Of a stretch of 26,627 nucleotides of DNA, positions 5,801 through 6,182 are shown piece by piece. The stretch comes from Candidatus Babelota bacterium (GTDB lineage: Bacteria; Babelota; Babeliae; Babelales; JAUPTZ01). Position 1 is the stretch's first letter; the number at the start of each line of letters is the position of its first letter. The translations under genes and the position numbers were made by a program. The notes under the pieces were generated by a model. That model was not told the origin of the DNA, did not search any database, and saw only the letters and a program-made list of their open reading frames with translations. The stretch is taken from assembly GCA_030917105.1 (NCBI GenBank), contig JAUPVI010000002.1, positions 1-26,627 on the forward strand, read 5' to 3'.

Positions 5801-6182
5801 TTTCTTTATTGAGCGTGCCAGGAAGGGGAGTTGTGCGTATGGAATCGTGTGGATTGTATACTTGAACGATGTCCTTGAGCGTTATAGTGTAGGTGGGTGG
5901 GTTTTTTTTAAGACCTTCTCCCAGCGTGCTAGAGCTCACAACGCCAGTTGCTCCCCATGCTGTTGAAATGTCTTCATCAGTTTTCAGCAAAAATGCTACT
6001 AATTCTTGCGTTGTTTGATACTGTGTAAGTTGATTTTGTATTTCTGGCTGTTCGAAGGACACTGTTCGATTAGTACTTGGTAAAAGTAGCCCATCCACAT
6101 ATACCACTGGTAGTGAAAATATGGTGCTGGTAATGATACCACAGGCGAGAGCGGTAAATAGTGATACTAAATGCTTACGCAT
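2802..6182 (-). CDS. Atypical Lon protease paralog: signal peptide + diverged Lon N-domain + two tandem AAA+ modules + Lon protease domain
   Basis: Walker A GAPGTGKT (5121-5144) and GLPGVGKT (4104-4127); Walker B VILLDEIDK and IIVLDEIDK; Arg fingers LRDR and LWDR; catalytic PKSGPSAG (S1011) and IGGLDQK (K1054); hydrophobic N-terminus MRKHLVSLFTALACGIITSTIFS; AAGG SD 8 nt upstream of the ATG. Confidence 0.93.
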   Translation of the reverse strand: MRKHLVSLFTALACGIITSTIFSLPVVYVDGLLLPSTNRTVSFEQPEIQNQLTQYQTTQELVAFLLKTDEDISTAWGATGVVSSSTLGEGLKKNPPTYTITLKDIVQVYNPHDSIRTTPLPGTLNKETRLEVNPSACGFYKDAPLFNRISVKTIEEIYDLLARRYKTKALQKELSTITTCNQFIQTLVDRLNLEISALKALEFLTQNSTIQNKLKLLVELILQQGKASGMGGEENQDLAGNFHQQLQDLQLPEVTTNYLSDTIERYDRSKGNQLEAPGIEAYLRFALSLPWADAASTKNEEYDLEKVAKMLDEYQYGMDQVKDIILTHLALRMVTPEGSPLVLCLVGAPGTGKTSICKHIAQALGKKMARISLAGVHLQSDITGVSRSYINAAEGKIMRSIKNMQSASGVILLDEIDKMGTQNQQHGSPADALLHALDPEQNYAFTDDYLNIPFNISKILFVATANNEREIPSALRDRMIIVQVPSYTKAEKIEIAQSKIIPRLLQKSGLMSQKPSFSNEVIGLIIDKYTFEDGLRGLTHQLNFLIGKFARAYLRGESTIFTTDNLSTFLGNAHNSLAKFKRKAKEIEAYLATAARKKLFDAIEAFDATRERTEAHEKLRAYISAVLDFPWIPGEDSTNYNLDAVAAAVDETHYSVDEVKDSILDYLALAQRNTDNSSGSVLCLAGLPGVGKTSVAQALAKALNKKFIRIPMSSLTSIYDIKGLSADYQNGHTGVIAQALIDTGSQNTIIVLDEIDKIPHISIANALLDVLDPTQNAKFLDEYLGVPVDISKVLFIATANDTGEIPYPLWDRLTLVEMHGYSERQKIEIAQRYLLPKLYTQNNLSPLPFITPELLHTIIYNYTKEAGVRQLSRRLKTIVARYARSLNNTTPLVITPNNIDTILGEPITHDAIFNVDSVGTSNGLYWSMGGGGVLLIQVTARRGKGEVKVSGLPGEDMQESANAAASYVKTNIGHIMSTYAPSITLPKDVSLNGIDLHIHVMRGATPKSGPSAGLAFCTAIVSCLTGRPTRHDYGMTGEIDLYGNAFAIGGLDQKLEGARTHGLKRVFVPEENRKSIQALKETPVGVQVTFVETIDDILSEILLPTTKDTSPLFAASPFQVVRVINN

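What the first reader, a model, noticed from the sequence alone, without database searches (positions are those of the whole stretch)
6114..6182. Sec-type signal peptide on an ATP-dependent protease: exported Lon, possibly acting inside a eukaryotic host
Seen: the N-terminus MRKH-LVSLFTALACGIIT-STIFS has n/h/c regions and a proper SD. The predicted mature start (LPVVYVDGLLLP) lines up by eye with the first strand of the Lon N-domain (adjacent Lon: IAVVPTIDVVVFP), so the signal peptide looks appended to a diverged Lon N-domain. Established: LonA is cytoplasmic and the periplasm is generally considered to lack ATP. Inference: both ATPase sites remain intact, implying the protein works where ATP is available, e.g. 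host cytosol, vacuole or organelle after export, possibly through the T2SS encoded in this window. This would be a secreted self-contained unfoldase-protease effector.
Basis: partly seen in the sequence, partly recalled or inferred. Interest (0 to 1): 0.85.

Follow-up and report, generated by a model that had tools for sequence, protein, structure and literature searches.

The report
Lon protease paralog with export signal
A protist-dependent bacterium (phylum Dependentiae) encodes a second Lon protease with two ATP motors that, in every relative found, begins with a classic secretion signal. An ATP-driven protease probably works outside the cytoplasm here, most simply in a periplasm supplied with host ATP, but export has not been shown experimentally.

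Summary
Observation confirmed. Window 6114-6182 (minus strand) encodes the first 23 residues of a 1126-aa gene (2802-6182). They have a positive n-region (MRKH), a 13-residue hydrophobic core and a polar c-region ending in Ser, behind an AAGGA ribosome-binding site.

The feature is not chance. All 13 tandem-motor orthologs, and two single-motor relatives in the same syntenic slot, have such a peptide. None of 104 canonical LonA do. The peptide diverges freely (18% pairwise identity), and conservation (51%) begins exactly at the predicted cleavage point.

The mature N-terminus folds as a Lon N-domain (Foldseek E 1e-11 to 1e-7 against solved LonA N-domains). All ATPase and protease catalytic motifs are conserved.

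The organism is a diderm Dependentiae bacterium. It has SecA, two signal peptidases I, BamA, secretins and at least five ATP/ADP-type nucleotide transporters.

Interpretation partly supported. Export is the best reading (about 0.6), but it rests on sequence logic only, because no SignalP-type predictor was available. The claims of a host-delivered effector and of T2SS cargo have no specific support. A periplasm through which host ATP must pass is the simpler ATP source.

The scan has noted signal-bearing Lon/Clp-type proteins on other DNA before, and later checks priced those bold readings low.

The parts
6190..6194 (-). Shine-Dalgarno AAGGA, 7 nt before the ATG
   Evidence: SD-like AAGG-type motifs (one locus: GAGAGGA) precede the ATG in 8 orthologous loci.
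6171..6182 (-). Signal peptide n-region, MRKH (codons 1-4), net +2
6132..6170 (-). Signal peptide h-region, LVSLFTALACGII (codons 5-17)
   Evidence: Modelled as a helix (residues 3-20) at lower pLDDT (61-66) than the domain behind it.
6114..6131 (-). Signal peptide c-region, TSTIFS (codons 18-23). Predicted SPase I site is S23|L24.
   Evidence: The -1 residue is A/S in 11/13 orthologs, and conservation begins at residue 24.
5397..6113 (-). Diverged Lon N-terminal domain (residues 24-262): a beta-rich subdomain plus a helical region
   Evidence: No Pfam hit. hhalign gives 97.8% probability to the canonical LonA N-region (query residues 175-334), with the long helix shortened. Foldseek to LonA N-domains gives E 1e-11 to 1e-7. 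Language-model features match LON_substr_bdg at 0.92.
4449..5396 (-). First module (D1): helix bundle plus Lon-type AAA+. Walker A 347-355, Walker B 411-418, sensor-1, Arg finger and sensor-2 are intact.
   Evidence: (42% identity to the neighbouring canonical Lon)
3504..4448 (-). Second module (D2): helix bundle plus Lon-type AAA+ plus lid. Walker A 686-694, Walker B 750-757.
   Evidence: (D1 vs D2 39% identity)
2877..3503 (-). Lon_C (S16) protease domain with a Ser (GPSAG, around residue 1011) and Lys (around 1054) dyad
2802..2876 (-). 24-residue C-terminal tail and stop codon
6249..8609 (-). Canonical LonA (786 aa, no signal peptide) immediately upstream; the 66-nt spacer has no promoter- or terminator-like site. 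It is the likely parent of the paralog.
   Evidence: The lon->lon2 order is conserved.

Best explanation
lon2 arose as a tandem duplicate of the housekeeping lon gene in one Dependentiae lineage. The copy acquired a cleavable Sec/SPase I signal peptide and a remodelled Lon N-domain. Later, in the genus of this window, its helix-bundle/AAA+ module was duplicated.

The precursor is targeted by the N-terminal peptide to SecYEG/SecA and translocated unfolded. It is cut after residue 23 by signal peptidase I. The roughly 1100-residue mature protein folds, and presumably assembles into rings, in the periplasm.

There it works as an ATP-dependent unfoldase-protease. Its ATP comes from the host: the host ATP must diffuse across the outer membrane into the periplasm to reach the cell's many NTT nucleotide transporters.

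Shown: the signal-like peptide, its conservation, the Lon N fold directly behind it, intact catalytic motifs, and the presence of Sec, SPase I, BamA and NTT genes. Inferred: translocation, cleavage, periplasmic residence, the ATP supply and the substrates.
For: - The peptide has canonical n/h/c features. The positive charge lies on the N side and the C flank is net negative in all 13 orthologs, which predicts an N-in/C-out topology.
- Its sequence is free to vary (18% identity) while the residues after the cut are conserved (51%).
- 11/12 (12/12 with one corrected start) of the family are signal-like, against 0/104 canonical LonA.
- Single-motor relatives P0272 and P0380 in the same syntenic slot also carry it, so it has been kept through large divergence (24% identity in the N-domain).
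- No second hydrophobic segment exists anywhere in the 1126 aa.
- The N-domain has the Lon N fold and starts at residue 24.
- All ATPase and protease motifs are conserved.
- Present in the genome: SecA, two SPase I, BamA, and multiple NTT transporters in this genome and in all four sister species.
- Other exported-looking proteins in the window carry peptides of the same style.
- In the cultured relative C. destructans, 44% of CDS carry predicted signal peptides, and the cell has two membranes and a periplasm (PMC6561590).
- Two metatranscriptome contigs match lon2, one identically over 156 nt and one with a 2-nt gap; this is a weak hint of expression.
- Lig E is a published periplasm-targeted ATP-dependent enzyme.
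Against: - No dedicated predictor (SignalP, DeepTMHMM) and no experiment were available; the call rests on rules and conservation.
- No bacterial AAA+ protease has been shown to act outside the cytoplasm, so the prior is low.
- Periplasmic ATP in energy parasites is a logical inference, not a measurement.
- The same paper lists lon of C. destructans as cytoplasmic.
- Related multi-motor Lon-like proteins solve membrane association conventionally, with a signal peptide plus a second TM followed by Lys residues, which puts the ATPase in the cytoplasm.
- DegP is present in the genus, so no obvious periplasmic protease gap needs filling.
- Cysteine pattern is uninformative.
- Earlier scan findings of this type were later priced low.
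Confidence: 0.45

Rival explanations
1. Cytoplasm-facing protein. The N-terminal hydrophobic helix is a monotopic or reverse-oriented membrane tether, or an inefficient signal. It keeps the two-motor Lon at the inner face of the membrane, as FtsH or archaeal LonB are, where ATP is plentiful.
For: All characterised AAA+ proteases of bacteria hydrolyse ATP in the cytoplasm (established knowledge). Relatives P0016/17, P0245 and P0248 have a signal peptide plus a second TM, which places their motors in the cytoplasm. P0259 instead has a single long N-terminal hydrophobic anchor whose orientation was not analysed. Conserved ATPase motifs demand ATP.
Against: The charge distribution (N side +1/+2, C flank -1) is the opposite of what an N-out/C-in anchor needs, in all 13 orthologs. 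The hydrophobic core is 12-15 residues, short for a TM helix. There is no second hydrophobic segment. The c-region has small residues at -1.
Confidence: 0.25
2. Uncleaved signal anchor. The peptide inserts N-in and is not cut, so the whole enzyme hangs from the inner membrane into the periplasm.
For: Same targeting evidence as the best explanation. Two orthologs have Pro at the aligned -1 position.
Against: The short hydrophobic core, polar c-region and A/S at -1 in 11/13 orthologs favour SPase I cleavage. The two Pro cases have alternative sites 2-3 residues upstream (read).
Confidence: 0.12
3. Secreted effector. After Sec export the protein leaves the cell, by T2SS or outer-membrane vesicles, and unfolds and degrades host proteins using host cytosolic ATP.
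For: T2SS-type genes (GspF, GspG, pseudopilins) lie in the window, and three secretins occur in the genus. Dependentiae are thought to secrete many hydrolases, and outer-membrane vesicles were seen in C. destructans (PMC6561590). A Fic-domain gene lies two genes downstream.
Against: No sequence feature marks T2SS cargo. The T2SS genes are 13 kb away, and none is called within 6-8 kb of lon2 in relatives. In my reading the mature N-terminus is a conserved, folded beta strand with acidic residues and does not look like a eukaryotic targeting signal; no predictor was run. A ring of six subunits of about 122 kDa each would have to assemble after secretion.
Confidence: 0.12

Closest known systems
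LonA / endopeptidase La (MEROPS S16; TIGR00763), e.g. E. coli Lon, Meiothermus taiwanensis LonA, Thermus thermophilus Lon (PDB 7p6u, 7fd4, 7cr9)
   Same: It has a Lon N-domain fold, a helix bundle, a Lon-type AAA+ module with all catalytic motifs, a lid and a Ser-Lys protease. The TIGR00763 score is 735, above the 608 cut-off. D1 is 42% and D2+protease 35% identical to the neighbouring canonical Lon.
   Different: It carries an N-terminal Sec-type signal peptide and two AAA+ modules in tandem instead of one. The N-domain is too diverged for the Pfam model, and the long coiled-coil helix is shortened. The pore loops are remodelled.
Mitochondrial LONP1
   Same: It is a LonA with an N-terminal, cleavable targeting peptide that takes it across a membrane into an ATP-containing compartment (established knowledge; LONP1 structures appear among the fold hits).
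   Different: The LONP1 presequence is an amphipathic mitochondrial signal used by TOM/TIM. Here the peptide is a hydrophobic bacterial Sec signal, and the destination is the bacterium's own envelope.
FtsH and archaeal LonB (membrane-anchored AAA+ proteases)
   Same: Both are AAA+ proteases associated with the cytoplasmic membrane through hydrophobic segments.
   Different: Their topology keeps the ATPase and protease in the cytoplasm. Lon2 has one short N-terminal segment whose charges predict the catalytic body lies outside.
[quoted passage not shown]
   Same: It is an ATP-dependent enzyme with a signal peptide, placed in a compartment assumed to lack ATP (PMC10799422; bioRxiv 10.64898/2026.03.22.713542).
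   Different: It is an unrelated fold. From my own knowledge, a ligase can be exported pre-adenylated and act once, whereas an unfoldase needs continuous ATP.
Signal-bearing Lon/LonC/Clp-type proteins noted earlier in this scan (e1-2884644, e1-1266638, e1-3983929, e1-4447217)
   Same: Each has a secretion-signal-like N-terminus on an AAA+ or Lon-type protease in uncultured or host-associated bacteria.
   Different: They are different lineages and architectures. The LonC cases have dead ATPases. Here both motors are intact, the organism is an NTT energy parasite, and the paralog's origin by tandem duplication of lon is traceable.

Membership tests
LonA (endopeptidase La, TIGR00763 / MEROPS S16) | Whole-protein score above the curated cut-off of TIGR00763 | tested here: met
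   735.4 bits against a cut-off of 608, reached through two matched stretches
LonA (endopeptidase La, TIGR00763 / MEROPS S16) | Lon N-terminal substrate-binding domain | tested here: met
   No PF02190 hit. However, Foldseek to LonA N-domains gives E 3.9e-11 to 1e-7 and TM up to 0.64-0.68 normalised to the target. hhalign gives 97.8% for the helical half. The beta half alone is not significant by profile.
LonA (endopeptidase La, TIGR00763 / MEROPS S16) | AAA+ module with Walker A/B, sensor-1, Arg finger, sensor-2 and an aromatic pore loop | tested here: met
   Present twice and conserved in 12 orthologs
LonA (endopeptidase La, TIGR00763 / MEROPS S16) | S16 protease domain with a Ser-Lys dyad | tested here: met
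   Lon_C 161.7 bits. The G[PN]SAG Ser and the GG..K Lys are conserved.
LonA (endopeptidase La, TIGR00763 / MEROPS S16) | One AAA+ module per chain and no targeting peptide (cytoplasmic enzyme) | tested here: not met
   Two modules and a signal-like N-terminus. 0/104 canonical LonA have one.
Sec-type (SPase I) signal peptide | Positive n-region, hydrophobic h-region of about 7-15 residues, polar c-region with small residues at -1/-3, total about 18-30 aa | tested here: met
   22-24 aa, net charge +1/+2, hydrophobic core 12-15 residues, -1 = A/S in 11/13
Sec-type (SPase I) signal peptide | Positive call by a trained predictor (SignalP 6, DeepTMHMM, Phobius) | not testable with these tools
   No such tool was available; only a rule-based heuristic was used
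Sec-type (SPase I) signal peptide | Export machinery encoded: SecA, signal peptidase I, outer membrane | tested here: met
   SecA, two SPase I, BamA
Sec-type (SPase I) signal peptide | Demonstrated translocation and cleavage | not testable with these tools
   Needs fusions or N-terminal proteomics
Lipoprotein (SPase II) signal | Conserved lipobox Cys at +1 | tested here: not met
   C14 is present in only 4 of 12 orthologs at that column, and there is no conserved lipobox
Tat signal | Twin-arginine motif in the n-region | tested here: not met
   No RR in any ortholog N-terminus
Membrane-anchored AAA+ protease with cytoplasmic motor (FtsH/LonB-like) | TM segment(s) whose flanking charges or number place the ATPase in the cytoplasm | tested here: not met
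   A single segment, with the N side positive and the C side net negative. No second segment is present. Relatives P0016/17, P0245 and P0248 do meet it.
T2SS substrate / host-delivered effector | Shown secretion or host localisation (no sequence signature exists) | not testable with these tools
   Only loose proximity to gsp genes, 13 kb away, with no gsp genes called within 6-8 kb of lon2 in relatives

The most novel reading that the evidence does not exclude
A self-contained, double-motor AAA+ protease works outside the bacterial cytoplasm, fuelled by host ATP that floods the periplasm of an energy-parasitic endosymbiont (or, less likely, after release into the host). This would break the rule that extracytoplasmic proteolysis in bacteria is ATP-independent. 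It would also imply that energy parasites can run ATP-driven machines in their envelope.
Probability: 0.4. Interest if true: 0.85.

Novelty: new variant of a known kind. Interest (0 to 1): 0.6.

Why it matters
Textbook bacterial cell biology holds that the periplasm has no ATP, so envelope quality control relies on ATP-independent proteases and chaperones. This lineage steals host ATP through its envelope. It has kept an export signal on a fully active-looking Lon for a long evolutionary time, through a motor duplication.

That makes it a concrete, testable counter-example. It turns 'can ATP-driven machines work in the periplasm of energy parasites?' into an experiment using PhoA fusions, one diagnostic peptide in metaproteomes, and in-vitro ATPase assays.

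It also documents a two-motor Lon, and three-motor relatives, which matter for AAA+ mechanism. If export is wrong, the result is still a new membrane-tethered Lon class.

Tried and rejected
- 'Lon2 replaces a missing DegP'. Trypsin_2 was absent from this 67%-complete genome, but it is present in 251/261 Dependentiae, including all four sister species. Rejected as an incompleteness artefact.
- Lipoprotein signal. The Cys is not conserved. Rejected.
- Tat signal. There is no RR. Rejected.
- Wrong start codon. There is no downstream ATG before about residue 229 and no SD before the internal GTGs. An ATG with an SD is conserved in 8 loci. Rejected.
- P0014, a 'signal-less' 961-aa homolog. It is a split gene; the upstream 178-aa ORF carries the hydrophobic peptide and the beta subdomain.
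- Profile-profile match of the beta subdomain alone to canonical Lon was not significant. A PDB sequence search with that profile found nothing. The question was resolved by fold search instead, after three refusals of that tool.
- Cysteine/disulfide pattern as a localisation clue was uninformative.
- A phylum search with the P0272 N-domain at E 1e-12 found nothing, not even the window's own gene. The threshold was too strict, so the result is uninformative.
- Literature. No paper holds both 'Dependentiae' and 'Lon protease'. No exported bacterial LonA turned up among the top-ranked 15 of 68 hits.
- Transcription evidence. There are only two short RNA-library contigs (one identical, one with a 2-nt gap), and DNA carry-over is not excluded.
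- A second signal-bearing P-loop protein (AAA_28+FKBP) was examined as support for nucleotide use outside the cytoplasm. It is real and its two homologs also have signals. It was not found in the four sister genomes, so it is only weak circumstantial support.

Full report
**What is there**

The finding's coordinates (6114-6182) are the first 23 codons of a minus-strand gene, 2802..6182, that encodes 1126 aa (P0001). The ATG is preceded by AAGGA at a 7-nt spacing. The N-terminus reads MRKH, then LVSLFTALACGII, then TSTIFS, followed by LPVVYVDGLLLP.

Pfam and NCBIfam see two Lon-type AAA+ modules, a Lon lid and a Lon_C protease. TIGR00763 scores 735 bits against a cut-off of 608. Nothing is matched in residues 1-270. 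The gene immediately upstream (6249..8609, minus strand) is an ordinary 786-aa LonA with a recognisable N-domain and no hydrophobic N-terminus. The 66-nt spacer between the two genes has no promoter- or terminator-like site.

**Whose genome**

The window is contig 59 of a 0.97-Mb, 67%-complete assembly. The closest named homolog is from a 'Candidatus Dependentiae bacterium'. The DNA recurs in bioreactor, wastewater and freshwater metagenomes.

The genome and its sister species encode:
- SecA
- two signal peptidases I
- BamA
- secretins
- multiple NTT/TLC nucleotide transporters, at least five reading frames here and 6-10 matches in each of four sister species

This is a diderm energy parasite. 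That agrees with what is published for the cultured relative Chromulinavorax destructans, which has two membranes, a periplasm and predicted signal peptides on 44% of its CDS (PMC6561590).

**Is the signal-like peptide more than chance?**

Eleven full-length database homologs (51-96% identity, 1099-1148 aa) and one more genome locus all start the same way. The peptide is 22-24 residues long. Its n-region has net charge +1/+2. The uncharged h+c stretch is 17-20 residues with a 12-15 residue hydrophobic core. A or S occupies -1 in 11 of 13. A conserved motif of the form [ILM]-P-[VAL]-[VL]-[FY]-x-[DE]-G follows.

The peptide itself is barely conserved (18% mean pairwise identity), while the next 19 residues are 51% identical. 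This is the signature of a targeting signal selected for physical chemistry rather than sequence.

With one fixed heuristic, 11/12 family members are signal-like. The twelfth fails only because its gene call starts at an upstream Met. By the same heuristic 0/104 canonical-size LonA are signal-like. An apparently signal-less 961-aa homolog (P0014) is a split gene whose upstream ORF carries the peptide. ATG starts with AAGG-type (in one locus GAGAGGA) SD motifs are found in eight loci. A lipobox and a Tat motif are both absent.

**What follows the peptide**

An AlphaFold2 model of residues 1-340 (pLDDT 74.7) puts a lower-confidence helix at residues 3-20. A beta-rich domain starts at residue 24, followed by helices.

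Foldseek matches the model to full-length LonA structures (7p6u, E 3.9e-11; 7ypk; 7fd4). It also matches isolated Lon N-domains: 7cr9 with TM 0.62-0.64, 7cay, 6ihg, 6vbk, 3ljc, and 2ane with TM 0.68. Profile-profile comparison gives 97.8% probability for the helical half, with the long coiled coil shortened. It gives nothing significant for the beta half alone. Protein-language-model features also point to LON_substr_bdg.

**Catalytic integrity**

Walker A, Walker B, sensor-1, the Arg finger, sensor-2 and the pore-loop Tyr of both modules are conserved in all 12 orthologs. So are the protease Ser and Lys. D1 is 42% identical to the neighbouring Lon, D2+protease is 35% identical, and D1 is 39% identical to D2. 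Selection therefore maintains ATP hydrolysis wherever the protein works.

**Evolutionary history**

The order ABC-ATPase (divergent) | lon -> lon2 -> unknown ... S1, NDK is conserved.

An exhaustive search of 1.84 billion representatives found two single-motor proteins, P0272 (772 aa) and P0380 (777 aa), in exactly this slot in other metagenomic Dependentiae-like contigs. Both have signal-like N-termini. The P0272 N-domain aligns to P0001 starting precisely at residue 24 (24% identity, E 1e-20). Its motor and protease are still 47% identical to canonical Lon.

The signal and the remodelled N-domain therefore predate the motor duplication and have been retained across deep divergence. Among 261 species-level Dependentiae genomes, the tandem form is confined to one genus, in all five species counting this one.

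More distant Lon-like proteins carry two or three motors with varied N-termini. Some have a signal only (P0246, P0249, P0250). Some have a signal plus a second TM followed by Lys residues, which would keep the motors cytoplasmic (P0016/17, P0245, P0248). Some have none.

**Topology reasoning**

P0001 has a single hydrophobic segment. In every ortholog the positive charge lies on its N side and the first 15 mature residues are net negative. By the positive-inside rule (established knowledge) the N-terminus stays in and the body goes out.

A cytoplasm-facing anchor would need the opposite charge pattern or a second TM, as the SP+TM relatives have. The short core and the small -1 residue favour cleavage over anchoring.

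**The ATP problem**

A simpler inference is available. An NTT-dependent parasite takes ATP from its periplasm, so host ATP must reach that compartment. A periplasmic ATP-dependent protease is therefore feasible in this lifestyle. This is inference, not measurement. Lig E is the nearest published case of a periplasm-targeted ATP-dependent enzyme.

Nothing specific supports T2SS cargo or host action. The gsp genes are 13 kb away, and none is called within 6-8 kb of lon2 in relatives. The mature N-terminus is a folded strand and, by my own reading, not a eukaryotic targeting peptide.

**Caveats**

- No trained signal-peptide predictor and no experiment were available.
- The prior against an exported AAA+ protease is strong.
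- DegP is present in the genus, so there is no obvious vacancy in the periplasm.
- Expression evidence is limited to two short contigs in one RNA library, one identical and one with a 2-nt gap.
- This scan has flagged signal-bearing Lon/Clp-type proteins on other DNA before, and later checks priced the bold readings at 2-14%. I rate this case higher because of the complete ortholog conservation, the traceable origin from lon, the uniform charge topology and the NTT lifestyle. It remains unproven.

**Verdict**

| Reading | Probability |
|---|---|
| Body of the protein lies outside the cytoplasmic membrane (overall) | about 0.6 |
| - cleaved and periplasmic | 0.45 |
| - anchored | 0.12 |
| - secreted to the host | 0.12 |
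| Cytoplasm-facing | 0.25 |

These are rough odds for partly overlapping readings and are not normalised.

Novelty: a new variant of LonA. Interest: 0.6.

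Noticed in passing
G000 contig C13:924-1994 (-) = L032:924-1994:-: This 352/356-aa protein has a signal-like N-terminus, an AAA_28 P-loop domain (Walker A GGPSTGKTS) and a C-terminal FKBP-type PPIase. Only two other proteins with this architecture turned up among the best 120 listed hits of a 5.8-billion-protein search, and both also have signal-like N-termini. 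It was not found in the four sister genomes. It is a second candidate exported nucleotide-binding protein.
   Followed up: partly
window 2802-5396 (-); relatives P0015, P0016, P0017, P0018, P0023, P0245, P0248, P0251: Lon-type helix-bundle/AAA+ modules are multiplied in single chains: two in this gene and three in several distant relatives of 1113-1675 aa. The GPSAG protease motif is seen in P0015, P0245 and P0248.
   Followed up: partly
L033:6001-8319 (P0272) and L034:6001-8334 (P0380): Single-motor Lon paralogs with signal-like N-termini sit in the same lon->lon2 slot in other metagenomic contigs. P0272 keeps a canonical pore loop. They look like the pre-duplication stage of lon2.
   Followed up: yes
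G000 contig C21 (2717 bp, gene runs off the end): A further canonical LonA without a signal peptide, so this small genome has at least three Lon genes.
   Followed up: partly
window 1889-2719 (-) and 679-1806 (-): A 276-aa protein with no Pfam family lies directly downstream of lon2; a similar-sized unknown gene (272 aa) follows lon2 in relative L031, homology not checked. It is followed by a Fic/DOC-domain protein.
   Followed up: no
window 9473-19154: This is a run of five large genes without Pfam hits. Most have signal-like N-termini of the same style as lon2's (e.g. 9473-11533, 14507-15799, 15911-17950). They lie between lon and the gspF/G/pseudopilin cluster at 19205-24106.
   Followed up: no
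window 3156-3311 and 3484-3628: Two short contigs from a freshwater metatranscriptome library match the lon2 protease region, one exactly and one with a 2-nt gap. The canonical lon attracts only partial matches from other organisms.
   Followed up: partly
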